Assembly: GCA_902559355.1 (NCBI GenBank)
Contig: CACEHM010000002.1
Location: 171,246-235,245 of the forward strand
Source of the DNA: an uncultured Gammaproteobacteria bacterium
GTDB taxonomy: Bacteria > Pseudomonadota > Gammaproteobacteria > GCA-002705445 > GCA-002716945
Length of the DNA stretch: 64,000 nucleotides
Direction of reading: 5' to 3'
Part shown: in pieces, positions 18,830 through 39,572 of the stretch
Layout: each line of letters starts with the position of its first letter
Position numbering within the stretch: the first letter of the stretch is position 1
Program-made: the position numbers and the translations under genes
Notes under the pieces: generated by a model
Databases searched by the model: none
What the model saw: only the letters and a program-made list of their open reading frames with translations
What the model was told of the DNA's origin: nothing

Positions 18830-18842
18830 TTGAATATAACAT

Positions 18843-20688: not shown

Positions 20689-20725
20689 TCTATTCAATTT
20701 CGTTAAATTACATTAGAATATAGAT

Positions 20726-21022: not shown

Positions 21023-22176
21023 TAGAAATTTTTATTATACTTATTGTCATTTTTTTGCTTTTCATTTTTCTAACAACCAGAAAATATCAAAAAGAAAGCT
21101 TATCAAACAATGTTTATAGTGCGGAATACTATCGTGGCCTTAACTACCTTTTAAATGATGAAAATGATAAAGCTCTAAAAATATTTACAGATCTTATAGA
21201 TGTGGATAGCTCTACTATTGAAACCCACTTAGCGTTAGGAGGCGTCTACAGAAGAAGAGGAGAATTTGATAAGGCCATTTTAATACATCAAAATTTACTA
21301 TCAAGACCAAAACTAGATAGAGGAATTAAAAATCAAACTCTTTATGAGCTTGGTAAAGATTTCTTCTCTGCTGGTCTTTATGATAAATCTGAAAAAATCC
21401 TCTATAACTTACAAAAAAATAAATCATATGAAGAATCATGTTCAGAATATCTCTTGTTGATATATGAACTTTCAAAAGATTGGGACAGTGCTATCAAATT
21501 AACTAAAAATATCAATAAGGATCAAATAAGAAATCTTTCAATTAATGATTTAATCTCACAATACTATTGTGAAAAAGCGAGTGAATATCAAAAGGATAAT
21601 CAATTAAATAAAGCTATTACAGTATTAAGAAAAGCAATTAATATTAATGACTCTAGTAGAAGACCATATTCAATGTTATTTAAGTTAAATATTCAATCTA
21701 ACCCAAGTAGTGCTATAGAAAATCTTCTTAATCTCGTCCGTTTAGATTCTTCATTTCTAGTAATATTGGCTAATGAAATAATTGAATTATCCACTATTCA
21801 TCAAGACAAAGATATTGATAAAAGGATTTCAGATATTATTCTTGAATTTTCTAGTGAAGATCGATTTTCACCTCAAATTTATGAATTTATGTTTAATATT
21901 AACGGTTATTGTTCACCAGATGAATATATAAACAGAATAAGAAAAAATGTATTTGCAAATATATTTGATAATTTATACTCAGAGAAGAGCATGAACAGTA
22001 ATGAGTCGAAAACTAATTTAGATATACTAACTCTGATTGGAGAAAACTTCCTCACATATAACTGTAGTAATTGCGGACATTCTGTAAGAAATCATATATG
22101 GCAATGTCCATCATGTAATCATTGGGAAACATTTAAGCCTAATACTATAAGTGATAGGGTAGCAATTAATGATTGA
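21019..22176 (+). CDS. lapB: lipopolysaccharide assembly protein LapB (TPR + rubredoxin-type zinc finger)
   Basis: An N-terminal TM helix and TPR repeats are followed by the C-terminal CSNCGHSVRNHIWQCPSCNHW. The gene lies upstream of pyrF. Confidence 0.75.
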   Translation: MIEIFIILIVIFLLFIFLTTRKYQKESLSNNVYSAEYYRGLNYLLNDENDKALKIFTDLIDVDSSTIETHLALGGVYRRRGEFDKAILIHQNLLSRPKLDRGIKNQTLYELGKDFFSAGLYDKSEKILYNLQKNKSYEESCSEYLLLIYELSKDWDSAIKLTKNINKDQIRNLSINDLISQYYCEKASEYQKDNQLNKAITVLRKAININDSSRRPYSMLFKLNIQSNPSSAIENLLNLVRLDSSFLVILANEIIELSTIHQDKDIDKRISDIILEFSSEDRFSPQIYEFMFNINGYCSPDEYINRIRKNVFANIFDNLYSEKSMNSNESKTNLDILTLIGENFLTYNCSNCGHSVRNHIWQCPSCNHWETFKPNTISDRVAIND

Positions 22177-22846
22177 TTCTAAAAAAATTATTATTGCTTT
22201 AGATTATAATAATAGTCAAGAAGTATCAAAATTGATAAATAACATAGATCCAAATCTTTGCCGTCTTAAAATTGGAAAAGAACTTTTTACAAAATATGGC
22301 CCTAAAACTATACTTGAACTTCATGATAAGGGATTTGAGGTTTTCCTAGATTTAAAATTTCATGATATTCCAACCACAGTCTATAAAGCATGTATATCTG
22401 CTTTTTCACTAAATGTTTGGATGTTAAACATACATTTGTCTGGCGGTTATGATATGGCTATAGCAGCGATGAATGCAAAGAAGGACTGTCAATCTAATTC
22501 AAAACTAATCGGAGTTACTGCGTTAACGAGCTTAACAGATGATGATTGTATAAGAATATATGGCTGCAATAGATCAGATCAACTAAAAAGATTAAAAGAT
22601 ATTGGTCTAGATGCAAATATAGATGGTTTCGTGTGTTCACCATATGATATAGATACTCTTAAAGCAGATAATAAAATATTTGTAACACCTGGTATAAGAA
22701 CTAATAATAATACCAATGATCATCATAAAGTTATTGCCCCACAAGAAGCTCTAAAACTAGGCTCTAATTATTTAGTCATTGGAAGAAGTATCACCGAGAG
22801 TTCAAATCCAAATAAAGAGATAGAGAAAATTGTAAATTCTTTATAA
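22169..22846 (+). CDS. pyrF: orotidine-5'-phosphate decarboxylase
   Basis: Contains the DLKFHDIPTT active-site motif. Confidence 0.9.
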   Translation: MIDSKKIIIALDYNNSQEVSKLINNIDPNLCRLKIGKELFTKYGPKTILELHDKGFEVFLDLKFHDIPTTVYKACISAFSLNVWMLNIHLSGGYDMAIAAMNAKKDCQSNSKLIGVTALTSLTDDDCIRIYGCNRSDQLKRLKDIGLDANIDGFVCSPYDIDTLKADNKIFVTPGIRTNNNTNDHHKVIAPQEALKLGSNYLVIGRSITESSNPNKEIEKIVNSL

Positions 22847-23833
22847 ATCTGAGTAAAGCGCTTTATACTCACTTTCACTATCAAACTTAGGACCATATTC
22901 TTGAATAATTTTTCCAGAACATTTATTTGCAAATTTGATAGATTCAGAAATATTTTTATTTTTAGCTTTTGATGAAAGATATGCAGCTAAGAACATATCT
23001 CCTGCACCTGTTAGATCAACTGGTACAACTTTTTCACAGGATACATGTGTAAGAGCATTGTCATGATACACATATGCGCCATCACTACCTGAAGTAATTA
23101 TTATTTCATCAGAAAACTTATTAAGAAATTCTACAGCAGCATCTATGTTATCTGATGAAGAGATATTATATGCTTCTTGTTTATTACAAAATATAATATC
23201 AAATTTCTTATTAATCAATTCCATCATATTATCTTTAAAAAAATTTACTACATTCGGATCTGATAAAGTAATGATTTTTTTAATATTATTTTCATTTGCT
23301 ATATCTAAGCAATGTTTTGCAACATTATTTGTTTCATCGGAAGTGACTAAATAACCTTCAATCAAGATATACTCCGAGTTCATAATTGCTTCTTTCGAAA
23401 CATCCTTTATAGATAAATCAGATGAAACGCCAAGGTAGGTGTACATTGTTCTCTCATGATCAGGCGTTATAAGTACAATACATTCTCCAGTAATTCCATC
23501 CTTGACTTGTTTAATCGCAGATTGCATTCCAACAAATTTCAAGGATTCTTCAAATGTTGCACCTACATTATCTTTTGCGACTCTTCCAGTGAACGACACG
23601 TTTTCTCCAAATTGCGCAAGTGCATATAATGAATTTGCAACTGATCCTCCAGGCATCATTTTTACAACCCCATATTCTTTTTTAAGTTGATTGCTTAATT
23701 TATTATGATTATCTACATCATTAAGTTCCATGCAGCCTTTTGTTAAATTAAGTTGTAAGAGCTCTTCGTCAGTGATTTTATATTCACTATCCACAAGTGC
23801 GTTTCCAATCCCATATATAAATGTTTTATTCAT
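22841..23833 (-). CDS. PfkB-family sugar/nucleoside kinase (adenosine kinase-like)
   Basis: N-terminal GGSVANSLYALAQFG and the C-terminal anion-hole motif DLTGAGDMFLAAYL. Confidence 0.75.
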   Translation of the reverse strand: MNKTFIYGIGNALVDSEYKITDEELLQLNLTKGCMELNDVDNHNKLSNQLKKEYGVVKMMPGGSVANSLYALAQFGENVSFTGRVAKDNVGATFEESLKFVGMQSAIKQVKDGITGECIVLITPDHERTMYTYLGVSSDLSIKDVSKEAIMNSEYILIEGYLVTSDETNNVAKHCLDIANENNIKKIITLSDPNVVNFFKDNMMELINKKFDIIFCNKQEAYNISSSDNIDAAVEFLNKFSDEIIITSGSDGAYVYHDNALTHVSCEKVVPVDLTGAGDMFLAAYLSSKAKNKNISESIKFANKCSGKIIQEYGPKFDSESEYKALYSDL

Positions 23834-23848
23834 TTTAATCCTCTTGAT

Positions 23849-24870
23849 TTATGTTAAATATTCTAGTGTCTGCATTTCATTAAGTCTACTTTTACATCTT
23901 CTCCAAAGTTCTATAAGTTTATCACCTGTATAAATATGATTATATGAGCAGTTATTAAAAAAAAATTTAATCTTTATTTTGTTTCTATAGCAAATATCTA
24001 TAAAGGATATAAACCTTCTGATAAGATCGGCTGAATCATCATTACAAATAATAAAATCATTTATAAAGATCCACTCTATGTTTTCTGACATCTCAATATA
24101 TTCTTTATCTCCTCCAGGCTCTTTGAAGAAGTCTGAAAAAGAAATCCATAAAAAATCACATGATGTTGCTTTACAACTAAAACTTCTAGAATTGATACAG
24201 TACTTTTTATTAAAAGTTAGATTTTCAAAATTATTTTTTAAAAACTTTACAATATCTTTATCATCATAATTTTGATTTACATTATCATTATACATATTAA
24301 CAATATTTCTTGATCTATAATCTACCAAGCCTTCTACTTTATATAGATTAATTGATTCTTGCATAATCTTCATCTCATTAATAAACACTTCTCTCTGTAG
24401 ACCATTTTTATATAATTCTTCTGGATGTGTATTAGAAGTTAAATACAGAGTAACATTTAATTTAATGAGCTGATTTAGTAGGCTTCCGATAATCATCGCG
24501 TCTGATATATCCTCAACTTGAAATTCATCAATAAATATAACTTTACATTTTTTACTTAAAGATCTAGCTACAATATTCAAAGGATTTTTTTTACCTGACA
24601 AGCCAGATAATTCATCATGTACGATCTGCATGAGCTCCATGTAATGGAATGATGCTTTTCTTTCTGTTAGTAAATTAATAAAAGATTTTGTAATTAAAGT
24701 TTTACCTGTTCCAACATCTCCCCATATATAGAAACCTTTCTTGGAATCTTTATTTTCTAATTTATTTGTTAAATCTTTTTCAGGTTGAATAGATTCAATC
24801 ATTTTGTGAATCAAATCTGATTGTGCTGAATCTAATTTAATCCCTCTTTTTTTTAAACTTTTTTCAATAT
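23849..24870 (-). CDS. zapE: AFG1-family ATPase (cell division protein ZapE)
   Basis: Walker A IWGDVGTGKT and Walker B VIFIDEFQVEDI. I chose the ATG at 24870 (MFEYIEKSL...). The ORF is open upstream to 24982, but only by reading through a tRNA fragment. Confidence 0.7.
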
Positions 24871-24888
24871 ACTCAAACATTTTTTTAA

Positions 24889-24940
24889 TACCACTGATCG
24901 GACTCGAACCGATACTTTCTTGCGAAAAAGGGATCTTGAG
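24889..24940 (-). pseudogene. 3' half of a split tRNA-Leu(CAA) gene: anticodon 3' stem, variable arm, T-arm, acceptor 3' strand
   Basis: The minus strand reads CTCAAGA-TCCCT-TTTTCGCAAGAAAGT-ATCGG-TTCGAGT-CCGAT-CAGTGGT-A. This gives a T-arm with a GGTTCGAGTCC loop, a GNRA-capped variable hairpin, and an acceptor 3' strand complementary to GCCACTG at 29674-29680. Confidence 0.7.
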
Positions 24941-24999
24941 TGCATTGTCTGCACCAACCCAACAGTTACAAGATTTTAACACATTTTTTAATATTTTTT

Positions 25000-25028
25000 T
25001 TACATAAGATATTCATAAGTGCTATAAT
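25000..25028 (+). promoter_or_regulatory. sigma70-like promoter (TTACAT-17 nt-TATAAT)
   Basis: -35 TTACAT at 25000-25005, a 17-nt spacer, and a perfect -10 TATAAT at 25023-25028. An AAGGAGA Shine-Dalgarno sits 7 nt before the ATG at 25097. Confidence 0.4.
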
Positions 25029-25096
25029 AGAGTCTGTCTTGATTTAGAAATTACTCTACTTGCTGGGACATTAAACAAACGCTAAAGGAGAATATA

Positions 25097-25279
25097 ATGA
25101 AATTATCTATTCAGACTATCAAAGACTATTTCAAAAGTAAAAAAGATAAAAATAAAGATCTCATCTTTTTTGAAGAAATAGGAAATCAAAAAACTTCTAA
25201 AGATGACATCATGAAAAATTTGGTCAAGATCTTAGAAAAAAAAGGTTTCAAATATATAGATACAAAATATAAAGACTAA
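25097..25279 (+). CDS. small charged hypothetical protein (60 aa), first gene of the insertion
   Basis: Strong SD (AAAGGAGA), a promoter upstream and a terminator 20 nt downstream. I recognise no homolog. Confidence 0.45.
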   Translation: MKLSIQTIKDYFKSKKDKNKDLIFFEEIGNQKTSKDDIMKNLVKILEKKGFKYIDTKYKD

Positions 25280-25300
25280 ACACATATAATTGTGTAATAC

Positions 25301-25343
25301 AAAAAGAGAGTAACGAGTGCATCTCAACTACTCTCTTTTTTTG
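25301..25343. terminator. rho-independent terminator (bidirectional: A-run / hairpin / T-run)
   Basis: AAAAA-AGAGAGTA-(16-nt loop with inner GAG/CTC pairing)-TACTCTCT-TTTTTTT. Confidence 0.5.
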
Positions 25344-25411
25344 TGATAATCCATTCAATCTGATATCTATCCGATCAACAATCCTACTCTATACAGATTG
25401 TAGTAGAAAAT

Positions 25412-25440
25412 TTGACTTACAAATATCAGTAAACATAATA
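25412..25440 (+). promoter_or_regulatory. candidate sigma70 promoter for the five-gene cassette (TTGACT-17 nt-ATAATA)
   Basis: -35 TTGACT at 25412-25417, a 17-nt spacer, and -10 ATAATA at 25435-25440, about 70 nt upstream of the 25511 ATG. Confidence 0.35.
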
Positions 25441-25510
25441 ATTATTTTTCATAATAAAAAAGTATTTTTTTTTACTTGCTTTTATTATTTATCAGAATAA
25501 AGATACTAAT

Positions 25511-26134
25511 ATGGATAAAGAAAAAATTAAAAATAAAATCTTAGATATTGAAACCAAGTATAATTTTACCGAGGGATACAAATTGCTATATTGTCCATGG
25601 TCAACTATTGAACACTCTTCGATTGCGTTTATATCATTAAACCCTGGCAGTAAAATGCCTGATGAGGCAGATATTAGATTGTTATCTGATGAGAGAGGTA
25701 ATTCATATGAAATAGAAATGCATACTACTAAATCTCCTATTACTCATCAATTTTTAGAACTGTGCAAACTTCTCAATAAGAATCCCTCAGATATTCTTAC
25801 TGGCACAATTTGTCCATTTAGAGGTAAATCATGGACATCATTTTCTCGTGATCAGAGAAATGCAGGTCTAATGCTAGGCAAATATTTCTGGCACAAAACT
25901 CTAGATAAGATTAACTTACTCATTTGCGTTGGTAATGATGTTGCAAAAAATATGACTTCTATTTCTGATTTTAAAAAAGAGAAAATTTTTGATTCAGGTT
26001 GGGGTGATATTAAAATAACAAGATATAAAGACAGCACAGGTAAGATACTTATTCATTTACCACACCTCTCTACTTTTAAACTTTTTTCTCGAAAAGAGTG
26101 CTTACTTGTTCTAAAACAAGTTTTTAAGTTATAG
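25511..26134 (+). CDS. hypothetical protein with UDG-superfamily (uracil-DNA glycosylase fold, family 4/SMUG-like) motif pattern
   Basis: IAFISLNPGSKMPDEAD resembles UDG motif 1 (hhhhG-x-[NA]-PG followed by acidic residues). HQFLELCKLL matches the following helix. TICPFRGKSW...LLICVGNDVA resembles the V-x-C-RP..NR...hhV-LG region. The C-terminal HLPHLS resembles UDG motif 2 (HPSPL). This is a recalled pattern match, not a database hit. Confidence 0.45.
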   Translation: MDKEKIKNKILDIETKYNFTEGYKLLYCPWSTIEHSSIAFISLNPGSKMPDEADIRLLSDERGNSYEIEMHTTKSPITHQFLELCKLLNKNPSDILTGTICPFRGKSWTSFSRDQRNAGLMLGKYFWHKTLDKINLLICVGNDVAKNMTSISDFKKEKIFDSGWGDIKITRYKDSTGKILIHLPHLSTFKLFSRKECLLVLKQVFKL

Positions 26135-26149
26135 ACTATAATTTAAATA

Positions 26150-27226
26150 ATGATTGATATACATGATAAACTGCCCTCTGATCTAATTATTGGCAATGAA
26201 TATACTAAACAAGAATTAGATAAGTTGTTTAAGACATCTGAAATTGAAAACATTTATGGGGGTATTGGAAAGATAAATAATCGTTTAATCTTGCTTATCA
26301 CTCTAGACAAAACCTACACCGCAGAACTTCCTAAAAATGAGTCTGAAATGTCAAGAGAAGAGAAGGAAGAGCATAATTATCGTCATCTTGACTATTTTGA
26401 TATGGAGGAAAATATTTTCTGTTGGGATGGACCTACTAATATGAATCTTGAGAGTCCTTTAATAAAAGACTTTACCTCAAAATTATATCAATGCCTGTTG
26501 TTTGTTAGAGAGTATTATCATAAAGATGAATATGAATTTAAGAATAAAATTACTAATGATAAGTATTTTTACTGTGGGAAGATAAGATATCAAAAACATA
26601 TTGATACTAAAATTAAACATTTTATTTCAAGTTTAGAAGATGAACCTAATAAGAAACTTAATCATTTATATAAATTCATACCGACTGAATTAGATGAAAG
26701 AAAGAAAGAATTTAATATCTTAAAAGAAAAAGAGAAAAATGATTTTATTGAGTTAGTGCATCAAGAAGAATCTCGCACTCATGAAAGGAAAAGCACTTTT
26801 TCTGGAAATCCAGGCATTAAAAAAGAGTATATGGTTGAAAGTAACCTCAAAGCAGTATGCGGTTTTCTTAATGAAAGAGGTGGTAACCTTATGATTGGTA
26901 TCGAAGACGATGGGGAGGTTACTGGTATAGAGAAAGATTATAATTATAAAGACAATGATCAATTTGAGAGACATATTCTTTTTCAAATGAGAAAACTAAT
27001 GGATAAATTTGAAGTAATTGAAAAATATATTAAGTTTCAATTTGAATATGCTTCTTTAAGTGATAAAGACTCATCTAGAAAAATAGTATGTAGAATAAAT
27101 TGTAGACCATTACCTGATGATGAAGTTTCTTATGTTAACGGTAAACTTTATTTAAGAGTAGGACCCCAAACTAATGAATTAAGTGTAAAAGAGGCGTTAT
27201 CATGGTTAAAGAGAAGACAAAAGTAA
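26150..27226 (+). CDS. protein with C-terminal AlbA_2 / Schlafen-like (divergent AAA-4) domain
   Basis: EESRTHERKSTF...AVCGFLNERGGNLMIGIEDDGEVTGIEKD matches the AlbA_2 signature (E-S-x-T-x-E-[FY]-K ... A-F-x-N-x-x-GG-x-L-x-IG-V-x-D-D-G-x-V-x-G-I). I recognise no family for the N-terminal ~190 aa. Confidence 0.5.
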   Translation: MIDIHDKLPSDLIIGNEYTKQELDKLFKTSEIENIYGGIGKINNRLILLITLDKTYTAELPKNESEMSREEKEEHNYRHLDYFDMEENIFCWDGPTNMNLESPLIKDFTSKLYQCLLFVREYYHKDEYEFKNKITNDKYFYCGKIRYQKHIDTKIKHFISSLEDEPNKKLNHLYKFIPTELDERKKEFNILKEKEKNDFIELVHQEESRTHERKSTFSGNPGIKKEYMVESNLKAVCGFLNERGGNLMIGIEDDGEVTGIEKDYNYKDNDQFERHILFQMRKLMDKFEVIEKYIKFQFEYASLSDKDSSRKIVCRINCRPLPDDEVSYVNGKLYLRVGPQTNELSVKEALSWLKRRQK

Positions 27227-27636
27227 AGATATACCAAGGTGGTTCAACAGGTTTAGTTCAACAAAATAAACGCATGATTATGAAGTCTTCTCACACCAAA
27301 GGTGATGTAGGGATTCAAAGACAATTAAAAGATATGTTAAAAGCGAAATTTTCTTTTCATATAGTAATTATGCACTTTGGTGATTTTTTCAGGATAATCG
27401 AAGAGGACGCAGAGTTTTTTAATAAAGAATTTAATTTTAAACTTTCACAACCAGGACGATACACTTTCGTTACAACTGCGTTCCCTCTAAATAGTAGGCA
27501 AAAATATATAGATAAACTTACTGATATGGAAAAACAATTTTGTCTTCTAGATCAATATAAAGTTGACGGTACAGAGGAATTTTATAGGAAGGTAAACATA
27601 TCAACAAATAAAGATGCACTAGGGTTCTGGTACTAA
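27202..27636 (+). CDS. stand-alone MutS domain I (mismatch-recognition domain)-like protein
   Basis: [45 protein letters not shown] parallels E. coli MutS [71 protein letters not shown] parallels [28 protein letters not shown]. The GDF-Y-E Glu is Arg here (GDFFR). The gene overlaps the upstream ORF by 25 nt; an alternative start is the Met at 27274. Confidence 0.5.
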   Translation: [144 protein letters not shown]

Positions 27637-27656
27637 ATAAGAGAAGTCTCTAGTTC

Positions 27657-28352
27657 ATGATTGATATAACTTTTGATATGTTCTCGGATACTCCTGAAGG
27701 AAAAGATCCAGATACATGGAGTCCAACGTTAAGAAAGTACCATCAAATTTTATGGAATAAACGATTACCCAATGGAACTATGTTTAGTCTTGATCTTGAG
27801 ACAAGACAGTTATTACATCACAGATCTCAATTAGGAGAATTTTATTTATCAAGTGATTGTATAGGTCATACATACAGTCGTACTAAAAGTATTTCTGATA
27901 TAGTCAATCAGATTCCCTTAAGTGAAATAGATTCGTTTTATAAACTATGTAGCACAATAGGTTCTTATATCATATATCCTTGCAAAAGAATTGATAATAA
28001 GATGACATTTAATGGTGCTCGAGGTACTAATCGCAAGATAAAAGATAGATTCGACCTAACATTAGAATGTATTCGATTGTTTTATCAAAATGAAAAAAGT
28101 CCACTTAGTGAGACTATAGAAAGATATAAATCATATTTTAAACTATTTGATAACTTTCAAGGTTATGTTGATTTCTTTTTACTTCAAGATTTAGTATCAA
28201 GTGATTATTCGTCTATTAAATATCTTATACCTTTTAAAGATTTCGATAGTCCAGCACTACCATGCAACGTAGAAGAATATATTACTTATAAAGATAATAC
28301 GACAAAATTTATTTCACAAAGAAATGAAAGAATATTAAAATCAATACAATGA
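27657..28352 (+). CDS. hypothetical protein (orphan, 231 aa)
   Basis: Tightly linked to its neighbours (ATGA overlap with the next gene). I recognise no motif. Conserved-looking stretch: DPDTWSPTLRKYHQILWNKRLPNG. Confidence 0.5.
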   Translation: MIDITFDMFSDTPEGKDPDTWSPTLRKYHQILWNKRLPNGTMFSLDLETRQLLHHRSQLGEFYLSSDCIGHTYSRTKSISDIVNQIPLSEIDSFYKLCSTIGSYIIYPCKRIDNKMTFNGARGTNRKIKDRFDLTLECIRLFYQNEKSPLSETIERYKSYFKLFDNFQGYVDFFLLQDLVSSDYSSIKYLIPFKDFDSPALPCNVEEYITYKDNTTKFISQRNERILKSIQ

Positions 28353-29419
28353 GTAAATTTAAACCTATCTTATACGACGAACTATTTAAATTAATAACAC
28401 TTGGTGATGATGAAGAATGGGAAAAATTTTCTTCAGAGTACGAACATGTCTTTACACCAGGGTTTTTCTCACAACTTTCTGACACCGAAATTTATGAACT
28501 ATTTAATCATTATCAATTTTTATCCATTGAATATTGGAATATTTATTCTTCTTCATTAATTAACTCAGAGAATAATAAAATTAGATCCAATCAACTTCTA
28601 AAAAAATATCGTGAAATATGGGAAGGAAAAACACATAATAAAAATAGCACAGTCACTCCTGGAATTAACGAAAGAAAAATTAAAGAAATTGATGATTTTG
28701 AATTTGCAATTAATTATCCAGTCGAGGAAATATTAGATCCATCATTAAGCGCCGCAGGACCACATTTCTCAGAGATTGTATTTTGTTCAATACTTTATAG
28801 TTTTTTTGAGGAAATACTAACAACCTTCGTATTTAATGTATCTGGAAGTAAGTGTTTTTTTAATAATATAAAATATAAAGATCATTACTTCTATAAAACA
28901 AATAGATATACAGACTTGTATAAAGATTATATGAAACATTCAATCAAAGAACCAAAGAGAAAAGACTATAAGAATTTAGATGATTTTTATTCGGAAAGAT
29001 TAAGATATAGAAACATTACTAAAAAAAGTCTTCCTGAAATTAAAAACAATGAATGGTTAGAGTTTTATAGAAATAATAAGGGTATTGATGGTCGAGAAGT
29101 CCCTGATTACATTATTAAAGCAAAATATATAGATCAAAGATGTGACAGTACATTATATTCTGACTTAATATCACAGAGTAGATTTAAAGAATTCAAAATT
29201 AAAAGGAACAATGTGATGCATGCAAAATCAAATGAATCTAATATATCAACTCTTGCATGTTTTGATATTATAACTGATTTGCTTAACTTCTTAATTAATG
29301 ATAAGAATATTATCAATCAATATTCTAGTTGTATAAGTCAAAACAGTCTAAGATTTGATATTGATAAATTAGATGACGATGATGCTATTTGGGTATTTCA
29401 ATCTGAGATGACTTATTAA
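28349..29419 (+). CDS. hypothetical protein with C-terminal HEPN/Abi_2-like R-x4-H motif (candidate RNase effector)
   Basis: The C-terminal FKIKRNNVMHAKSNESNISTLACFDII contains an R-N-x-x-x-H motif typical of HEPN abortive-infection proteins. Size and composition are compatible with AbiD/AbiF-like proteins. Weak. Confidence 0.35.
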   Translation: MSKFKPILYDELFKLITLGDDEEWEKFSSEYEHVFTPGFFSQLSDTEIYELFNHYQFLSIEYWNIYSSSLINSENNKIRSNQLLKKYREIWEGKTHNKNSTVTPGINERKIKEIDDFEFAINYPVEEILDPSLSAAGPHFSEIVFCSILYSFFEEILTTFVFNVSGSKCFFNNIKYKDHYFYKTNRYTDLYKDYMKHSIKEPKRKDYKNLDDFYSERLRYRNITKKSLPEIKNNEWLEFYRNNKGIDGREVPDYIIKAKYIDQRCDSTLYSDLISQSRFKEFKIKRNNVMHAKSNESNISTLACFDIITDLLNFLINDKNIINQYSSCISQNSLRFDIDKLDDDDAIWVFQSEMTY

Positions 29420-29425
29420 TATTTA

Positions 29426-29509
29426 TAGCGATAGACAGACTCGAACTGTCACTCTGTTGCCAGAATCGGATTTTGAGTCCGACGCGTCTACCAATTCCGC
29501 CATATCGCC
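29426..29509 (-). tRNA. tRNA-Leu (anticodon CAA), class II with long variable arm
   Basis: Cloverleaf read manually on the minus strand: acceptor GGCGATA/TATCGCT (G1-U72), D-arm GCG-GAATTGGTAGA-CGC, anticodon arm TCGGA-CTCAAAA-TCCGA, variable hairpin TCTG-GCAA-CAGA, T-arm GACAG-TTCGAGT-CTGTC, discriminator A, and no encoded CCA. Confidence 0.85.
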
Positions 29510-29640
29510 ATGAGTAATTTATTCTATCAAAAACACAAACACTTTGGAAAGGTGTATGTACGGATAAATGTTTGTGCAATGTTTGTGACTAAAATTTACA
29601 AATTATAAGCATTACCAAGGCATCTGATGCATCCGTCTTC

Positions 29641-29680
29641 GTTTTGAGTCCCTCGTGTCTACCAATTCCACCACAGTGGC
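29641..29680 (-). pseudogene. 5' half of the split tRNA-Leu(CAA): acceptor 5' strand, D-arm, anticodon 5' stem and loop
   Basis: The minus strand reads GCCACTG-TG-GTG-GAATTGGTAGA-CAC-G-AGGGA-CTCAAAA, then diverges into GAAGACGG... with no anticodon 3' stem or T-arm. AGGGA pairs with TCCCT in the fragment at 24929-24933. Confidence 0.65.
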
Positions 29681-29717
29681 ATAATATTATTTATTTATGT
29701 GTTATCATTACAGAATA

Positions 29718-29915
29718 ATGGATTATATCACATATATTGTTCTCATTGTTCTCGTAATATTCGGTGTCATATATTTTAAAAAACAGTTTTTACTCTCTAG
29801 AGATATTCGTTTAGAAGATACAACACTAGAAGAACTAGATGAAAAATTAAAAAAGCATAAATTAATTGGCGGACGCCATAAAAGAACTAATAAAAAGAAC
29901 CCGCCAATAGTTTAG
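29718..29915 (+). CDS. small single-TM hypothetical protein
   Basis: MDYITYIVLIVLVIFGVIYF gives a TM helix followed by a charged tail. The ORF track starts 21 nt earlier, at 29697. Confidence 0.3.
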   Translation: MDYITYIVLIVLVIFGVIYFKKQFLLSRDIRLEDTTLEELDEKLKKHKLIGGRHKRTNKKNPPIV

Positions 29916-30355
29916 CTGTTTTCTTCTTTTGCAGACTGAGCCATTTTAGCCATCTCAGGCGTATATGCCTCACCTTGCCAGAGCATATCATAGACTATTT
30001 CTTCATTTCCATTTTCACAAAGATCTATTACTTTTTGGAATAAAGGTTGGAACTTATCACTTTTATGAGAGTTTTCATGTTCTTCATATGATTTCCAATA
30101 AGTTATTATAAGAGCTTCCTTGTCCTTTAGATCACTTTCTAGAGCTTTACCTAAATTACTTCCTTCATTAGATATTTGTCCACTATTCAAAACAACCATA
30201 CCCCCTATAAAACCAGTTTCTGAGTGATATGTTTTTACATTTTCGCACATTAAAGCCACTCTTTCTTGCAGTTCGTCTAAAGTACGGCCTTTTTTAAGAA
30301 TTACACGATTGATGGTAACGATACCATCATGAGGGAAACCTTTTATTAATGCCAT
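29912..30355 (-). CDS. ABM-domain (antibiotic biosynthesis monooxygenase-like) protein
   Basis: ITYWKSYEEHENSHKSDKFQ fits the ABM W-x-S-x-E-x-H-x-x-S-x-x-F pattern. Weak. Confidence 0.35.
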   Translation of the reverse strand: MALIKGFPHDGIVTINRVILKKGRTLDELQERVALMCENVKTYHSETGFIGGMVVLNSGQISNEGSNLGKALESDLKDKEALIITYWKSYEEHENSHKSDKFQPLFQKVIDLCENGNEEIVYDMLWQGEAYTPEMAKMAQSAKEENS

Positions 30356-30452
30356 GTTACACTCCTTTGTGTATTGATTGAATCTATGAACTACCTATTT
30401 TGTAACAAATTTCTTTTTAATTTGCAATGATGATGATCTATAATTCAGCCCT

Positions 30453-32887
<2,435 letters not shown>

Positions 32888-32888
<1 letters not shown>

Positions 32889-34672
32889 TGCATAAGTATC
32901 CTACCTGGAAATATATTTTAGTACTAATAGTTTTAACTTATGCAGTAATTTATTCATTACCAAATTTTTATAACACATACCCATCTATTAATGTTACAAC
33001 GTTCGAGAACAAAGAAATATCTAAGGAAGAGTTATTAACGCTTTCAAACAAACATAAATTTTCTAATATTGGTATTGATGGAAATAGCATCTTTTTTGAA
33101 TCGATAGATAATCAACTAAAAGCATACAATAAATTATCTCAAGAAAAACTGTATCAGTATACGCTCAGTAATTATAATCAAATTCCTCGATGGTTAAGTG
33201 CTATTAATGCAAACCCTGTTTCATTGGGCCTTGACTTAAAAGGAGGGGTTCATTTCTTACTTCAAATAGACAGTGAAAACGTAAAAAAATCTAGAGTGAA
33301 TCAACTAGAGAGTAATCTTAGGAATTTTTTTATTGATAATGGCATAAGGTATAGCAGCTTTGTAAGTAATGATGAAAAAGTCACTTTCAATTTATCGAAT
33401 AAAACAATTGATCCAGAAGTTATGACTATACTTGAAGATAACTTTTCAGACTATGAAATAATTACTACTGATTCAAATGATGGATTAGATCTAATTGCCA
33501 ACTTATCACAAGAATCATTAGATAATGATATTAAAGCCTCAATGAAAAAGAATATCACTATTCTAAGATCACGAGTGAATGAGCTTGGAGTTTCTCAACC
33601 CATTATTCAACAACAAGGAAAAGAACGTATAATAGTTCAGCTCCCAGGACTTCAAGATTCTACAAGAGCTAAAAATATACTTGGCTCTACGGCAACACTT
33701 GAATTCAGATTAACAAAAGGGACTCCTGATGATTGGAATCAATCACTAGCAGCGGGAACAAATACCATCAGTGAATCACTTCTTTACAGGCACAAAAATG
33801 GTTCACCAATCTTGCTTTCAAGAAATGTAATTGCTTCTGGAAAAGATATTGAAGGAGCAAATTCAGGTTTTGACGGTCAGACCAATCAGCCTGCTGTCTT
33901 TGTAAACTTAAGCTCATTTGGCGCTTCTAATATGTTAGAGACTACTTCGAGAAATATTGGAAATAGGATGGCTGTAGTCTTTGTAGAACAAGATAAAAAT
34001 CAAGTTATTAATGTTGCTACAATTAGAGAGGCATTCAGCAAGCGTTTTCAAATTACTGGCCTTGATCTTCAAGAAGCTAAAGATTTAGCAATACTTTTAA
34101 GGTCAGGTTCATTGAGCGCACCTATGGCTATAGTAGAAGAGAGAACAGTTGGACCTAGCTTGGGTAGTCAAAATATTATCTCAGGACGAGACTCAATGGC
34201 ATTAGGGATGATGTTAGTTATTATATTTATGTTTATTTATTATAAAAAATTTGGCTTTGTAGCAAACATAGCATTAATAGTTAACATCTTAATAATTACT
34301 GCAACATTATCATTATTTCAGGCTACTTTGACTTTATCGGGTATAGCTGGAATTGTACTGACAGTTGGAATGGCCGTAGATGCCAATGTACTCATATATG
34401 AACGAATAAGAGAAGAGCTCCTTAATGGGAATAGCCCAAATGCTAGTATTATTTCTGGGTATAATAAAGCATTCTCAACAATCTCTGATGCAAATATTAC
34501 TACGTTAATAGCTGCTATTGCTCTACTAACCATAGGTACTGGCGTTGTAAAAGGGTTTGCTGTCACTCTTGTCATAGGAATACTATCCTCAATGTTTACA
34601 GCAATCGTTGGGACGAGAGCTATAGTAAGTATCATTTACGAAAATAAAAATAACAAAGGACTGTCTATATAA
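32888..34672 (+). CDS. secD: protein translocase subunit SecD
   Basis: Large periplasmic domain followed by a C-terminal 6-TM bundle; yajC-secD-secF order. Confidence 0.9.
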
Positions 34673-35562
34673 TGTTTAGAATTGTCAAAGATTTAGATAT
34701 TAAATTTATGAATATTAGAAGAGTTCCATTAATCATATCTGCTCTATTAATATTTATTTCTATGTCAAGTATAGCAGTGAAAGGCTTCAATTTCGGTATA
34801 GACTTTTCAAGTGGGTACATTGTACAGCTGAAATTTGACAATCAAGTTACAGTTGCAACTATTCAGGAAAAACTATATGAAAACAACTTAAACGATGTTT
34901 CGGTTCAGTTATATGGCTCTAGTAATGAAATATTAATAAAGCTTAGAGATGAAGAAATATTTAAAAAAATAAATATTAATAATCATATTAATGAAATCTT
35001 TAAAGATGATACTTTTATTATAACAAAACTTGAATATGTTGGAGCACAGGTAGGTAGCGAATTAAGAGATAAAGGAGAATGGGCAATGTTAATTGCACTA
35101 TTTAGTATTCTTATTTATGTTGCTCTAAGATTCGAGCTGATCTATGGATTAGGTGCTATATCAGCACTAGTGCATGATGTGATAATTACTCTTGGAATAT
35201 TTTCGTTTTTCAATCTAACCTTTGACCTTAGTGTCCTAGCTGCAATTTTAGCTGTAATAGGTTACTCACTAAATGATTCGATTGTCGTTTTTGATCGTAT
35301 AAGGGAGAATAATATCATTCTCAGGAAACTTTCAATATTTGACGTTCTTGATAAATCGATAAATCAGACTCTATCTAGAACGCTTGTAACATCACTGACT
35401 ACACTATTGGTCATAATATCGTTGTTAATGTTTGGAGGCAATGCTGTAGAAAACTTCGCTATCGCAATGCTAATAGGCATAATAATTGGGACTTATTCTT
35501 CAATCTTTATAGCGAGTGCAAGCTTATCTTATTTTGGGATAACTAGGCCTGAGGAAAATTAA
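34672..35562 (+). CDS. secF: protein translocase subunit SecF
   Basis: SecF topology and motifs (FGIDFSSG...). Confidence 0.9.
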   Translation: MFRIVKDLDIKFMNIRRVPLIISALLIFISMSSIAVKGFNFGIDFSSGYIVQLKFDNQVTVATIQEKLYENNLNDVSVQLYGSSNEILIKLRDEEIFKKININNHINEIFKDDTFIITKLEYVGAQVGSELRDKGEWAMLIALFSILIYVALRFELIYGLGAISALVHDVIITLGIFSFFNLTFDLSVLAAILAVIGYSLNDSIVVFDRIRENNIILRKLSIFDVLDKSINQTLSRTLVTSLTTLLVIISLLMFGGNAVENFAIAMLIGIIIGTYSSIFIASASLSYFGITRPEEN

Positions 35563-36290
35563 TTTAGTTTTTTCATATTATTTTCATTAGCCAGTATCAA
35601 ATAATCGCCAGATGTTTCTATGATAATTCCAGCTTCTTTCGCAATAAGTATACAATCTTGATTATGATTATATTCATCCATACTTAATAAATAAAAGTCA
35701 ATTAGACCTCTTGAAAGGTAAATTAATTCAACAGATACAGAATTAAGAGATATTTTTTCCATAGTATTAAAATATTCAGGAATAATTATATCTTTAGAAG
35801 TTCCATAAATAAGTCTTTCTGTACTAATATTTGATCTAATCTTCCTCTGATTATTTACAGAACCAGAACCTTTCTCGCTAAATAGCAATATATCTAGAAA
35901 TGGGTTTAATAAGAACGAAGATATAACATTTTTTTTGTGAATAATTGATAATGATAAAGTCCAAAAAGGTAATTTCCTACAAAAGTTATCATAATCATGT
36001 ATAAAGTTAATTGCCCATACATACGACTCCTCTTTATGTTTTGATGCGTTGTAGATAATATTAGGATCTTCTAGACGAAGTCGCTTCTCATCCTCTATAT
36101 ATGTAAAACTAATAAAATCATTTTCACCAAACTTATAATATGTATTAATATGTTCTACAGCTTTACTCGTAAGTATTTCTCTTACAGGCATATTTTTTAG
36201 TGCATCAGTACTTTTATTAATAAAGAATCTTCTGACTTCCTCTTCAATAAGTTCGCCTGCAGATTTTGCTATATTCAGTCTTGGTTGCAT
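35559..36290 (-). CDS. suhB: SuhB/inositol-monophosphatase-family protein with degenerate metal-binding motif
   Basis: The N-terminus MQPRLNIAKSAGELI parallels SuhB MHPMLNIAVRAARKAG. The gene is divergent from trmJ-iscR, as suhB is in enterics. The W-V-I-DPLDGT-TNF region reads W-A-I-NFIHDY-DNF, so both Asp of DPxDGT are lost. Confidence 0.6.
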   Translation of the reverse strand: MQPRLNIAKSAGELIEEEVRRFFINKSTDALKNMPVREILTSKAVEHINTYYKFGENDFISFTYIEDEKRLRLEDPNIIYNASKHKEESYVWAINFIHDYDNFCRKLPFWTLSLSIIHKKNVISSFLLNPFLDILLFSEKGSGSVNNQRKIRSNISTERLIYGTSKDIIIPEYFNTMEKISLNSVSVELIYLSRGLIDFYLLSMDEYNHNQDCILIAKEAGIIIETSGDYLILANENNMKKLN

Positions 36291-37034
36291 AATATAATTT
36301 TGTTAGATAGTGTATATTACATTATGTCTAGTAATATTAATATTGTTTTAGTTAAGACCAGTCACCCAGGAAATATTGGCTCTACAGCAAGGGCTATGAA
36401 AACTATGGGTTTAAAGAATCTCACTCTCGTGCAACCAAAAAACTTTCCATCCGATATTGCAAAAGCACAAGCTGTTGGATGTGTTGACATTTTAAATAAT
36501 GCTAATATTACTACAGTTTTAAAAGAGGCTTTAGGTTCTTCAAAATTAGCAATCGGCTTCTCAGCAAGATCTAGAAAATCAAATATACCATCACTTTCAA
36601 TGAATGAATTGATGGACCTATTGAATGTGTATGATAAAGAAAATGTTTCTATTGTTTTTGGAAATGAGCAATCAGGTTTATCTAATGAAGAACTTCAATT
36701 ATGTAATTATCTAGTATCTATTCCTACAGACAGTGCTTATACCTCTCTAAATTTAGCATCTTCAGTTCAAATATTTTCTTATGAGTACTTTAAATCATGT
36801 GACGCTAAACCAATCTCCAAAAAACTTCAAGATTTAGCAAGTCATTCCAGTAAACTTGTCTTGATAGAGAAATTTTTATCAATAATGTCTGACTTAGATA
36901 TCATTACAGAAAAGAATAAAAAATCACTTGTCCAAAATATTCATATAATTTTTAATAAAACAAATTTTACTGAAAATGAAGTCAATTTATACCTTGGTAT
37001 TCTTACTAAAATAGGAAAAGCCTTAAAAAAATAA
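36285..37034 (+). CDS. trmJ: tRNA (cytidine/uridine-2'-O)-methyltransferase TrmJ (SpoU family)
   Basis: SPOUT motifs (VLVKTSHPGNIGSTARAMKTMG, VFGNEQSGLSNEEL), located upstream of iscR. Confidence 0.8.
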   Translation: MHNIILLDSVYYIMSSNINIVLVKTSHPGNIGSTARAMKTMGLKNLTLVQPKNFPSDIAKAQAVGCVDILNNANITTVLKEALGSSKLAIGFSARSRKSNIPSLSMNELMDLLNVYDKENVSIVFGNEQSGLSNEELQLCNYLVSIPTDSAYTSLNLASSVQIFSYEYFKSCDAKPISKKLQDLASHSSKLVLIEKFLSIMSDLDIITEKNKKSLVQNIHIIFNKTNFTENEVNLYLGILTKIGKALKK

Positions 37035-37072
37035 TTGTTGACTAGATAAGTCAGGTATATGATAATTCACTC

Positions 37073-37519
37073 ATGAAATTAAGTACTAAATCAAGATATG
37101 CTATCACAGCTATAATTGACCTTGCGCAAAATCAAAATGGCGCAGTTTCTCTTAAGGATATCTCTATTAGACAGGGAATATCCCTTTCTTATTTAGAACA
37201 GCTTTTTTGTAAATTGAAAAATAAAAAAGTTGTAACAAGTAGAAGAGGGCCTGGTGGCGGATACACTTTGAATAGAAAAAGCAGTGATATTTCATTGTTT
37301 CAAATTATTACAGCTGTAGATGAAAATATTGATCAAACCCAATGCGCAGGAAGCATGAATTGCTTAAAAGATAAACCATGTACAACGCATCATGTTTGGA
37401 CCGGACTTAATAAAATTATAAAGGACTATATGAAAAGCATAACTATTGAAGATGTAATTACAAATCAAGTTATACATAATTTGCATGATGCAAGGGAGAG
37501 CAAGACTCATGTCAGCTAA
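37073..37519 (+). CDS. iscR: Fe-S cluster assembly transcriptional regulator IscR (Rrf2 family)
   Basis: An Rrf2 helix-turn-helix ([18 protein letters not shown]...[10 protein letters not shown]) and Cys ligands (CAGSMNC...C). Confidence 0.85.
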
Positions 37520-38756
37520 CACTAAAAAAATAAATTCTACTTTAAGTATTCCAATATATTTGGATTACTCATCAACAACACCTGTGGATAAACGTGTTGC
37601 TGATAAAATGTCGGAGTGTCTAACACTAGATGGAGCTTTTGGAAATCCAGCTTCAAGGTCACACTCTTTTGGTTGGGATAGCGACCATCTTATTAAAACA
37701 GCACGAGCAAATGTTGCTAATCTTCTTAAATGTGATAGCAAAGAAATTGTTTGGACTAGTGGTGCAACCGAATCTAACAATCTTGCAATCAAAGGCGCTG
37801 CACATTTTTATAAATCTAAAGGTGATCATTTAATTACACTTACAACTGAACATAAAGCAGTTTTAGATACTATGAGACAGTTAGAGCTTGAAGGGTACAA
37901 TGTAACATACCTTGATCCTGAGCCAAATGGATTAGTAGATCTTAAAAAACTAGAAGATGCCATAACAGAGAAAACTCTTCTTGTATCCATAATGCATGTA
38001 AATAATGAAATAGGCGTCATACAAGATTTGGAAAGTATTGGTAAATTATGTAAAAAGCATAAAATATTATTTCATGTTGATGCTGCTCAAAGCCCAGGGA
38101 AAGTTGATATTGATGTAAATAAATTTAATGTTGATTTAATGTCATTATCTGCTCATAAAGTCTATGGGCCAAAAGGCATAGGAGCTTTATTCATTAGAAG
38201 AAAGCCTAGAGTTAGGTTAGAAGCTCAAATGCATGGAGGAGGCCATGAAAGAGGTTTTAGATCTGGTACTCTACCAACTCATCAAATAGTAGGAATGGGA
38301 GAAGCTTTCAGAATTGCAAATGAAGAAATGGAAGTTGATAACATACGTATAAGAAAACTTAGAGATAAATTTTGGGCTCAACTTAAAGATGTTGAAGAAA
38401 TATATCTAAATGGTGATTTAGACAGCAGAATCCCTGGAAACCTTAACGTTAGTTTCAATTATGTTGAGGGTGAAAGCTTAATCATGGCAATTAAAGATAT
38501 CGCTGTATCATCAGGTTCAGCATGTACCTCTGCCAGTCTAGAGCCTAGTTATGTTCTTCGTGCACTTGGAAGAGATGATGAACTGGCTCATAGTTCAATT
38601 AGAATTACTATCGGAAGATACACAACTGAAGAAGAAGTCGATTATGCAGTGGAATTGTTAAAAAAATCTGTAGCCAAGCTTAGAGATTTATCACCATTAT
38701 GGGATATGTATAAAGATGGTGTGGATATTAAATCTATCAAATGGAATACACATTAA
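37509..38756 (+). CDS. iscS: cysteine desulfurase IscS
   Basis: N-terminus [15 protein letters not shown]-Lys region [15 protein letters not shown], active-site loop SSGSACTS, and a C-terminus ([20 protein letters not shown]) close to E. coli IscS. The ORF is open upstream to 37485. Confidence 0.9.
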
Positions 38757-38759
38757 TTC

Positions 38760-39571: not shown

Positions 39572-39572
39572 T

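What the first reader, a model, noticed from the sequence alone, without database searches (positions are those of the whole stretch)
29426..29640. Insertion-borne tRNA-Leu(CAA) with G1-U72 wobble and its own upstream region
The intact tRNA-Leu inside the insertion shares the D-loop (GGAATTGGTAGAC) and the anticodon loop with the split tRNA, but has different acceptor, anticodon and T stems and opens with a G1-U72 pair. It is separated from the orphaned 5' half by about 130 nt containing a TAGAAT -10-like element 11 nt upstream of the mature 5' end. Carrying a complete tRNA rather than a 3'-half att copy is atypical for elements that target the anticodon loop. It implies the host depends on the element for Leu(CAA) decoding, which would act as an addiction-like stabiliser, unless another copy exists elsewhere.
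Basis: partly seen in the sequence, partly recalled or inferred. Interest (0 to 1): 0.5.

Follow-up and report, generated by a model that had tools for sequence, protein, structure and literature searches.

The report
Island-borne replacement tRNA-Leu(CAA) gene
A 4.7-kb defence-gene island has split this marine bacterium's tRNA-Leu(CAA) gene in the anticodon loop without repairing it, and it carries its own complete, promoter-equipped tRNA-Leu(CAA) as a substitute; related genomes show such substitutes being split and replaced in turn.

Summary
Window 29426-29509 (- strand) is a sound type II tRNA-Leu(CAA), here called B (Rfam 60.1 bits). It lies 132 nt downstream of the orphaned 5' part of another tRNA-Leu(CAA), called A (29642-29680). 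A's 3' part lies 4.7 kb away (24889-24933).

A related MAG (96% identical QueA) has A intact and nothing inserted. The 4,708-bp segment is therefore an insertion exactly at the 7-nt anticodon loop.

The B module (spacer, promoter, tRNA) recurs in independent marine contigs. It is 93-100% identical there, while host flanks are only about 80% identical, so it moved horizontally. In three contigs B is itself split at the same loop position by a module bringing a third tRNA-Leu(CAA), called C.

Two corrections apply. G1-U72 is also found in A, in C and in many other tRNA-Leu(CAA) genes. No integrase is present in this island or in any related unit.

The closest known system is tRNA-dependent lysogeny (Guerrero-Bustamante and Hatfull 2024). 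Here it appears on integrase-less defence cassettes stacked at one tRNA. Host dependence on B is plausible but could not be tested from 64 kb. I rate this a new variant of a known kind, interest 0.6.

The parts
29426..29509 (-). Intact tRNA-Leu(CAA) 'B', 84 nt, type II, with G1-U72 and A73 and no encoded CCA. This is the working copy at this locus.
   Evidence: Rfam scores it 60.1 bits over model positions 1-71, and ARAGORN calls it. It is 84/84 identical in L008 and L015, and its 5' half is identical in L020 and L022, while the upstream 132 nt differs by about 7%.
29510..29587 (-). Promoter part of the B module. It holds CACAAACATTGCACAAACAT direct repeats (29568-29587), an inverted copy (29534-29542), TTTCCA (29545-29550), an 18-nt spacer, TG-extended TAGAAT (29521-29529) and an 11-nt leader.
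   Evidence: The promoter scan is, the coordinates come, and conservation across window, L008, L015, L020 and L022 is shown. The C module has a homologous layout.
29588..29641 (-). A 54-nt spacer (CGAAGACGGATGCAT...) that always follows the recombination site in B modules. It forms the left end of the inserted DNA.
   Evidence: The same junction, loop followed by CGAAGACGG, is seen in the window, L020 and L022, and in L008 after a different left partner. The spacer has no detectable similarity to tRNA 3' halves.
29642..29680 (-). Orphan 5' part of the resident tRNA-Leu(CAA) 'A' (positions 1-38), ending with the anticodon loop CTCAAAA (29642-29648), which is the crossover site.
   Evidence: It is identical to the intact gene in L001, L024 and L044-L050. 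The window-to-L001 alignment breaks here.
24889..24933 (-). Orphan 3' part of tRNA 'A' (positions 39-84), directly upstream of zapE.
   Evidence: It is 100% identical to the 3' part of the intact A in L001.
24934..24977 (-). Right end of the insertion. It consists of a loop copy CTCAAGA (24934-24940) preceded by the 'P2' arm (24941-24977), a degenerate look-alike of a tRNA 5' half.
   Evidence: P2-type arms recur at unit borders in L020, L041 and L051. Their similarity to the A 5' half gives z 2.1-4.1 against shuffles.
24934..29641 (.). The whole 4,708-bp insertion, which is absent from the related MAG LRMED-302.
   Evidence: By blastn, window 15750-24957 matches L001 4-9213 and window 29642-41469 matches L001 9190-21017.
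25097..25279 (+). Cargo: a 60-aa ORF of unknown function next to the P2 arm.
   Evidence: Only marginal family hits were found.
25511..26134 (+). Cargo: a 207-aa protein that is probably a member of the uracil-DNA-glycosylase superfamily.
   Evidence: It has no Pfam hit. Of its 81 homologues, two (P0204, P0206; 45-46% identical) are named uracil-DNA glycosylase by JGI. Homologues sit in the L020-L022 arrays, adjacent to the DUF6994 gene, and in L051.
26150..27226 (+). Cargo: a 358-aa protein with a Schlafen/AlbA_2 domain.
   Evidence: Pfam PF04326, E 5e-14. Homologous genes occur in the L020 and L051 arrays.
27202..27636 (+). Cargo: a 144-aa MutS-domain-I-like protein. In five of the six other contexts examined it sits next to restriction-modification genes.
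   Evidence: Pfam PF01624, E 1e-7. The family has only 34 members. Contexts are shown.
27657..28352 (+). Cargo: a DUF6994 protein of 231 aa.
   Evidence: Pfam PF22507, E 3e-90.
28349..29419 (+). Cargo: a 356-aa protein with no family match, convergent with tRNA B.

Best explanation
A 4.7-kb, integrase-less defence island was inserted by site-specific recombination at the 7-nt anticodon loop (CTCAAAA) of the resident tRNA-Leu(CAA) gene A. The island supplies no matching 3' half next to the junction, so A stays split and dead.

Instead, the island carries a complete tRNA-Leu(CAA) gene (B) 132 nt inside its left end. B is driven by its own conserved TG-extended -10 promoter, and it takes over UUG decoding.

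Shown: the insertion, the crossover position, the integrity and strong conservation of B, horizontal spread of the B module, and repeated use of the same loop site by other units.

Inferred: that B is expressed, is charged by LeuRS and is needed by the cell. Also inferred: that the recombinase acts in trans from elsewhere, and that the island is a composite of a '5' module' (spacer, promoter, B 5' half) and a cognate '3' cassette' (B 3' half, cargo, P2 arm).
For: An empty site with intact A lies between the same flanking genes in MAG LRMED-302, and the breakpoints fall at the loop.

Only B is detected as a tRNA between 20000 and 32000, even at E<=10. B scores higher than A (60.1 against 57.0 bits).

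B is 84/84 identical in three contexts with three different downstream cargos. Its 132-nt upstream region is only 92-93% identical in those contexts.

Host flanks of the window and of L020/L021 are 79-82% identical, yet both carry the same junction of A 5' part, loop and CGAAGACGG. This means horizontal movement to the same nucleotide position.

In L020 and L022, B is cut at its own loop by a homologous module carrying intact tRNA C.

All 26 loci that span the site keep at least one intact tRNA-Leu(CAA): B in the window, A' and B in L008, C in L020/L022, another native variant in L030-L039, and A in the rest.

UUG makes up 175 of 1919 Leu codons in the window's ORFs.

A precedent for the logic exists in PMC10865867.
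Against: No integrase or other recombinase is found in the island with Pfam, PADLOC, PHROGs or NCBIfam. None appears in about 10 related units, and none among 28 further window ORFs scanned. How the DNA got in is therefore not shown.

A genome-wide count of tRNA-Leu(CAA) is impossible from 64 kb. UUG may also be read by tRNA-Leu(UAA).

The promoter match alone is no better than chance in this AT-rich DNA.

Most relatives surveyed carry intact A, so the replacement state is a minority state.
Confidence: 0.7

Rival explanations
1. B is only a passenger gene. The cell does not depend on it, because another tRNA-Leu(CAA) exists elsewhere or a wobble-reading tRNA-Leu(UAA) suffices. B's conservation would then reflect recent spread rather than need.
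For: General knowledge: E. coli leuX (CAA) is dispensable. UUG is a minority Leu codon here, at 8.6 per 1000 codons. The orphan A halves have not decayed, which is consistent with very recent events.
Against: B is invariant while its flanks vary. Each disrupting module brings a complete tRNA with a promoter. No locus that spans the site lacks an intact copy. These organisms have small, AT-rich genomes, where tRNA redundancy is usually low; this last point is inference.
Confidence: 0.25
2. The island did not arrive as one element. The locus is a cassette platform in which a trans-acting recombinase shuffles units at the loop site. B would then simply be the junction between a resident 5' module and a later, B-specific classical cassette carrying the B 3' half.
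For: The cargo changes immediately after B's 3' end in the window, L008 and L015. L020 contains C 3' halves both at the working gene and as an orphan after a P2 arm. L051 shows four more borders, three of them carrying 3' halves of further tRNA-Leu(CAA) variants. Units of one to six genes all lack a recombinase.
Against: A 170-nt 5' module alone inserted in A would leave no working tRNA. The module must therefore have entered together with a B 3' half at least once. No recombinase or circular intermediate has been seen. This rival refines the main explanation rather than excluding it.
Confidence: 0.4
3. A and B are old tandem paralogues of the host, and an unrelated island landed between them. 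The 'split' would be a decayed duplicate.
For: L008 has A' and B both intact, about 820 nt apart.
Against: Relatives have A alone with no B (L001, L024, L025, L044-L050). The two A pieces in the window join exactly into the intact gene and are 100% identical to it. In L008, A' is followed by a typical cassette with its arm and loop site before the B module.
Confidence: 0.02
4. The arrangement is an assembly chimera.
For: Metagenome assemblies often break at this locus: 21 of 25 index blocks for one host marker hold only contigs under 2 kb.
Against: The same junctions recur in the window and in contigs listed under different sources (ENA, JGI, NCBI).
Confidence: 0.02

Closest known systems
tRNA-dependent lysogeny of actinobacteriophages (Fionnbharth and other K4 and L phages; Guerrero-Bustamante and Hatfull, mBio 2024, PMC10865867). 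The same paper cites prophage Lj965 of Lactobacillus johnsonii as a likely case.
   Same: Integration occurs in a host tRNA gene with only a short common core, so the tRNA is not rebuilt. [quoted passage not shown]
   Different: There is no phage and no element-encoded tyrosine integrase here. The carrier is a 4.7-kb island of defence-type genes. The tRNA sits 132 nt from the junction as part of a conserved end module. The replacement tRNA is itself re-targeted, giving stacked halves (A, then B, then C). The host is a marine AT-rich gammaproteobacterium. Requirement for the tRNA is untested.
Classical tRNA-gene genomic islands with crossover in the anticodon loop (Williams 2002 sublocation classes; Islander database, PMC4383910).
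   Same: The crossover is at the 7-nt anticodon loop, the island is flanked by a repeat of the loop, and the displaced tRNA fragments mark both ends. Neighbouring units at this same locus (L008, L024, L020) do carry a restoring 3' half.
   Different: The window's island does not restore the target, has no adjacent integrase, and shows its extended similarity to the target on the 5' side (P2 arm) rather than the 3' side.
Tycheposons and the tRNA-seeded islands they build in Prochlorococcus and other marine bacteria (Hackl et al., bioRxiv 10.1101/2020.12.28.424599).
   Same: Arrays of small cargo units and remnants accumulate at one tRNA in an abundant marine lineage, separated by partial tRNAs. 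Many units lack an integrase, and population heterogeneity is high.
   Different: Tycheposons are defined by their own tyrosine (or serine) recombinase and leave partial tRNAs while keeping the host gene. Complete substitute tRNAs and stacked 5' halves are not described there. The target here is tRNA-Leu(CAA), which is not one of their seven targets.

Membership tests
tRNA (Rfam RF00005), type II leucine tRNA | A cloverleaf scoring above the gathering threshold, a CAA anticodon, a long variable arm and an A73 discriminator. | tested here: met
   60.1 bits against a threshold of 29, with the full model aligned. The variable-arm stem is TCTG/CAGA and A73 is present.
tRNA-dependent lysogeny | attB overlaps a host tRNA gene, and the common core is too short to rebuild the tRNA. 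| tested here: met
   The core is the 7-nt loop plus imperfect similarity on the 5' side. No tRNA is detectable at either junction.
tRNA-dependent lysogeny | [quoted passage not shown] | tested here: met
   B is Leu(CAA), as is A.
tRNA-dependent lysogeny | The element is a temperate phage with its own tyrosine integrase next to attP. | tested here: not met
   The six island ORFs give no integrase or phage structural hits in Pfam, PHROGs, PADLOC or NCBIfam. No match was found in IMG/VR or in INPHARED phages.
tRNA-dependent lysogeny | The element's tRNA is required for viability of integrants. | not testable with these tools
   This needs the whole-genome tRNA set and genetics. Only indirect support exists: B is invariant, and an intact copy is present at every locus that spans the site.
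Classical tRNA-targeting genomic island | The island carries a copy of the tRNA's 3' segment that regenerates the target gene. | tested here: not met
   The A 5' part is followed by CGAAGACGG..., which has no similarity to a 3' half (p>0.1). Sister units in L008 and L024 do meet this feature.
Classical tRNA-targeting genomic island | The crossover is within the tRNA, and the island is bounded by the displaced fragment. | tested here: met
Tycheposon | A tycheposon-type tyrosine or serine recombinase lies at the element's end. | tested here: not met
   No recombinase was detected in any unit examined.
Tycheposon | Tandem units at one tRNA are separated by partial tRNA copies. | tested here: met
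   L020 and L022 have six loop sites, and L051 has four.
Integron-like cassette platform | A platform-encoded integrase lies next to the array, and cassettes are bounded by a structured recombination site. | tested here: inconclusive
   Cassette-like units without a recombinase are present. No integrase was found in the scanned genes within about 30 kb on either side in the window. The rest of the genome was not available.

The most novel reading that the evidence does not exclude
The tRNA-Leu(CAA) anticodon loop of this marine clade may serve as the docking site of an integron-like cassette system run by a recombinase encoded elsewhere. Small defence cassettes would be bounded by tRNA halves. 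5' modules (promoter plus 5' half) and 3' cassettes (3' half plus cargo) would stack on opposite sides, and only the innermost cognate pair would form the cell's working tRNA. Each invasion would then replace the host's tRNA gene. This would drive turnover of tRNA-Leu(CAA) sequences across lineages (at least eight variants were seen) and make the newest arrival hard to lose.
Probability: 0.3. Interest if true: 0.8.

Novelty: new variant of a known kind. Interest (0 to 1): 0.6.

Why it matters
It extends 'disrupt the host tRNA and bring your own' from actinobacteriophages to integrase-less defence islands in a very abundant marine gammaproteobacterial lineage.

It also shows that the process can repeat. 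The substitute tRNA becomes the next target, leaving a readable stack of dead halves. That gives a concrete mechanism for tRNA gene turnover, and for stabilising islands through an essential-gene swap.

It further points to an unidentified recombinase that moves one- to six-gene defence cassettes in streamlined ocean bacteria. All of these ideas can be tested directly with existing metagenomes and single-cell genomes.

Tried and rejected
1. I looked for the missing 3' half with acceptor-stem patterns and short blast. Both failed because the 3' strand ends in T, not C. Reading the zapE upstream region found it.

2. An exact look-up of the window's QueA found nothing on record.

3. Seven IMG/VR scans returned nothing relevant: the B 5' part, the B 3' part, the junction, C, A, the P2 arm and the P1 repeats. 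The only hit was a chance T-arm match to a tRNA-Met in a jumbo-phage tRNA array. Megablast and blastn against cultured phages gave only generic tRNA-Leu similarity.

4. I searched for a recombinase with four HMM libraries on the island ORFs, a motif screen over all window ORFs, and Pfam on 28 further window ORFs. All were housekeeping genes. PDB sequence searches of three cargo proteins gave nothing.

5. I tested whether the 54-nt spacer is a decayed restoring 3' half. It is not supported (p>0.1 against shuffles).

6. I considered the MutS_I-like protein as the mobility gene and rejected it. It tracks restriction-modification genes, including at an unrelated locus.

7. I considered the 207-aa protein as a small recombinase and rejected it. 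It has no resolvase hit, and two of its homologues are named uracil-DNA glycosylase.

8. The P0032 context (L040) is a different, frameshift-ridden island without a tRNA.

9. A survey of the 84%-identity lineage (L030-L039) showed only empty sites.

10. MFE folding alone does not reproduce the full cloverleaf. The covariance model is the relevant test.

Full report
WHAT IS AT THE COORDINATES. ARAGORN finds a single tRNA in the 64-kb window, tRNA-Leu(CAA) on the minus strand at 29425-29510. The Rfam tRNA model aligns 29509-29426 from end to end at 60.1 bits (gathering score 29, E 1.7e-10). Its parts are acceptor GGCGATA/TATCGCT (G1-U72), U8, D-loop GAATTGGTAGA, anticodon stem TCGGA/TCCGA, loop CTCAAAA, a long variable arm, T arm GACAG-TTCGAGT-CTGTC, and discriminator A73. 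I call it B.

Reading the minus strand upstream of B gives 132 nt and then GCCACTGTGGTGGAATTGGTAGACACGAGGGACTCAAAA. This is the 5' part of a different tRNA-Leu(CAA), called A, and it stops at the end of its anticodon loop (coordinates). TAGAAT lies 11 nt before B's G1. It has TG just upstream, and TTTCCA sits 18 nt further up. Simple MFE folding gives z = -2.7 but does not reproduce the full cloverleaf. The covariance score is the relevant test.

THE OTHER HALF AND THE EMPTY SITE. The window is a roughly 30% G+C bacterial chromosome: queA-tgt-yajC-secDF lie to the right, and zapE (AFG1) lies to the left. The 3' part of A (TCCCTTTTTCGCAAGAAAGTATCGGTTCGAGTCCGATCAGTGGTA) is just upstream of zapE at 24889-24933. 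It is preceded by CTCAAGA. A also pairs G1 with U72.

A genome scan with QueA found MAG 'Gammaproteobacteria bacterium LRMED-302' (QueA 96% identical). There, one intact tRNA lies between zapE and the same 147-aa gene. It is identical to the window's two pieces joined. By blastn, window 15750-24957 matches that locus at 88.6% and window 29642-41469 matches at 96.5%. The two alignments overlap only over the D-arm-to-loop stretch. So 4,708 bp (24934-29641) is an insertion exactly at the anticodon loop. Neither junction forms a detectable tRNA, even at E<=10.

WHAT THE INSERTION CARRIES. There are six ORFs, all antisense to the tRNAs:
- a 60-aa ORF;
- a 207-aa protein, two of whose 81 homologues JGI names uracil-DNA glycosylase;
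- a Schlafen/AlbA_2 protein;
- a 144-aa MutS-domain-I-like protein;
- a DUF6994 protein;
- a 356-aa protein with no family match.

None of them matches an integrase, transposase or phage protein in Pfam, PADLOC, PHROGs or NCBIfam. Twenty-eight further ORFs of the window are housekeeping genes.

THE B MODULE IS MOBILE AND CONSTRAINED. A metagenome scan with B's D-arm and anticodon-arm sequence returned 16 contigs. Two of them (L008, L015) contain B at 84/84 identity with the same upstream region. Each has different DNA starting 3-5 nt after A73.

Contexts of the MutS_I-like protein gave three more contigs (L020, L021, L022) with the same junction of A 5' part, loop and CGAAGACGG. Host flanks of these contigs are only 79-82% identical to the window. 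The 132-nt module is 92-93% identical, and the B sequence is 100% identical. The module has therefore moved between diverged hosts into the same nucleotide position. B is also conserved far more than its own upstream DNA.

REPLACEMENT REPEATS. In L020 and L022 the minus strand reads as follows:
- A 5' part, loop;
- spacer, promoter, B 5' part, loop;
- a homologous spacer and promoter, then an intact third tRNA-Leu(CAA), C (53.5 bits);
- cargo (52 aa, EEP-like, DUF6994, 207 aa), P2 arm, loop, and an orphan C 3' half with one T-loop mutation;
- HsdR, HsdS, HsdM, MutS_I-like, P2 arm, loop, A 3' half;
- DUF2130, Schlafen, P1 arm, loop, A 3' half, zapE.

The 5' halves pile up on one side and the 3' halves on the other. 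The innermost cognate pair is the only working gene.

In L008 a one-gene unit carrying an A 3' half sits in front of the B module, so A' and B are both intact. L024 has intact A, a one-gene unit and a decayed A 3' half, which is the classical outcome. L041 and L051 add more borders of the same kind. L051 contributes 3' halves of three further tRNA-Leu(CAA) variants. A more distant lineage (L030-L039) has yet another native variant, in inverted orientation. Every variant has G1-U72 and A73, and so do many unrelated metagenomic tRNA-Leu(CAA) genes. The wobble pair is therefore a trait of this isoacceptor, not of the island.

SITE ANATOMY. Every border falls at the loop, [C/T]TCAAAA. On its 5' side, units end in one of two arm types. 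P2 weakly but significantly resembles the 5' half of A (z 2.1-4.1). In L021 it has been partly overwritten by true A sequence. P1 carries the same CAAACAT-N4-CAAACAT repeats found upstream of B and C. The spacer after the loop shows no similarity to any 3' half. The repeats could be recombinase arm sites or a tRNA promoter element; I cannot tell which.

MOST LIKELY MECHANISM. A site-specific recombinase that is not encoded in these units recombines loop-containing sites. The window's island entered A at the loop. It provides no A 3' half, so A is inactivated. The island's own B gene, transcribed from its conserved extended -10 promoter, supplies tRNA-Leu(CAA).

The insertion, its position, the integrity and conservation of B, and reuse of the site are shown. 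Expression, charging and necessity are inferred. UUG accounts for 175 of 1919 Leu codons in the window, so there is demand. However, a modified tRNA-Leu(UAA) might cover it (general knowledge; leuX is dispensable in E. coli).

All 26 loci that span the site retain at least one intact tRNA-Leu(CAA). This fits a requirement, but it is also what the design guarantees.

The varying cargo immediately after B suggests that the island is a composite of a 5' module and a B-specific 3' cassette.

COMPARISON WITH KNOWN SYSTEMS. The logic is that of tRNA-dependent lysogeny. That system has a short core, no rebuilt tRNA, and a same-isotype tRNA with its own promoter on the element, which is required for viable integrants (PMC10865867). 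Two defining features fail here: there is no phage and no element-encoded integrase.

Classical anticodon-loop islands share the crossover site but restore the gene. Sister units at this locus do so; this island does not.

Tycheposon-built islands share the array architecture and marine setting but are defined by their own recombinases.

Serial re-targeting of the substitute tRNA, and the resulting stack of halves, is not described in any of the papers I read.

POPULATION CONTEXT. The flanking 147-aa gene has more than 4,000 homologous clusters, so the lineage is very abundant. Most sampled relatives have intact A, either with an empty site or followed by varied DNA. The replacement state is a minority state. 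Contigs often end at this locus.

VERDICT. I rate it a new variant of a known kind, interest 0.6.

Noticed in passing
window 27202-27636; L015 196-612; L020 2610-3026; L041 190-606; L043 1381-1797: A small (about 138-144 aa) MutS-domain-I-like protein family has only 34 members in 5.8 billion proteins, and the sources recorded for them point to marine samples. In five of the six other contexts examined it lies directly beside restriction-modification genes: type I HsdMSR, N6_N4 methyltransferases, or a Dam-like methyltransferase with a PD-(D/E)xK protein. It may be an uncharacterised restriction-modification accessory.
   Followed up: partly
window 25511-26134 and 27657-28352; L020 9135-10447: A uracil-DNA-glycosylase-like 207-aa protein and a DUF6994 protein travel together in these cassettes, adjacent in L020-L022 and about 1.5 kb apart in the window. 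They may form a two-gene defence module. Neither has a solved homologue by sequence.
   Followed up: partly
window 28349-29419: The 356-aa ORF next to tRNA B has no family match. It contains RNNVMH (an R-x4-H, HEPN-like motif) near its C-terminus. Given the Schlafen-domain neighbour, a tRNA-directed nuclease role is conceivable but unverified.
   Followed up: no
window 15750-24957 versus 29642-41469: The two flanks of the tRNA differ sharply in divergence from MAG LRMED-302 (88.6% left, 96.5% right). This implies a homologous-recombination breakpoint at the tRNA locus.
   Followed up: no
window 23849-24880; L030-L039, L050: zapE (AFG1-like ATPase), next to the tRNA, is present in some relatives and absent in others, where the tRNA abuts pfkB directly.
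   Followed up: no
L030 about 7722-7805: A sister lineage has a different tRNA-Leu(CAA) sequence in the opposite orientation at the same locus. This is consistent with past replacement of the gene.
   Followed up: partly
L021 2813-2898 versus L020 2495-2580: In two otherwise near-identical contigs, the P2 arm of one is partly overwritten with authentic A 5' sequence. This yields a near-complete pseudo-tRNA that ARAGORN calls as tRNA-Leu. It looks like gene conversion between att arms and the tRNA.
   Followed up: partly
window 24934-24940: The loop copy at the right junction is CTCAAGA (G at tRNA position 37), whereas other arrays have CTCAAAA. This is either an element-derived mismatch in the overlap or a later mutation, and it could hinder excision.
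   Followed up: no
window 29700-29900 (+): A conserved 65-68-aa membrane-like ORF (MDYITYIVLIVLVIFGVIYFKK...) overlaps the promoter region of tRNA A on the opposite strand. It is called as a gene in relatives.
   Followed up: no
L003 1464-5721: An IMG/VR contig of 129 kb carries an array of 23 tRNA genes. It was hit only through a chance T-arm and acceptor match to B by its tRNA-Met.
   Followed up: yes
window 27130-27213: There is a sub-threshold c-di-GMP-I riboswitch match (24.6 bits against a gathering score of 35) inside or overlapping coding sequence. It is probably noise.
   Followed up: no
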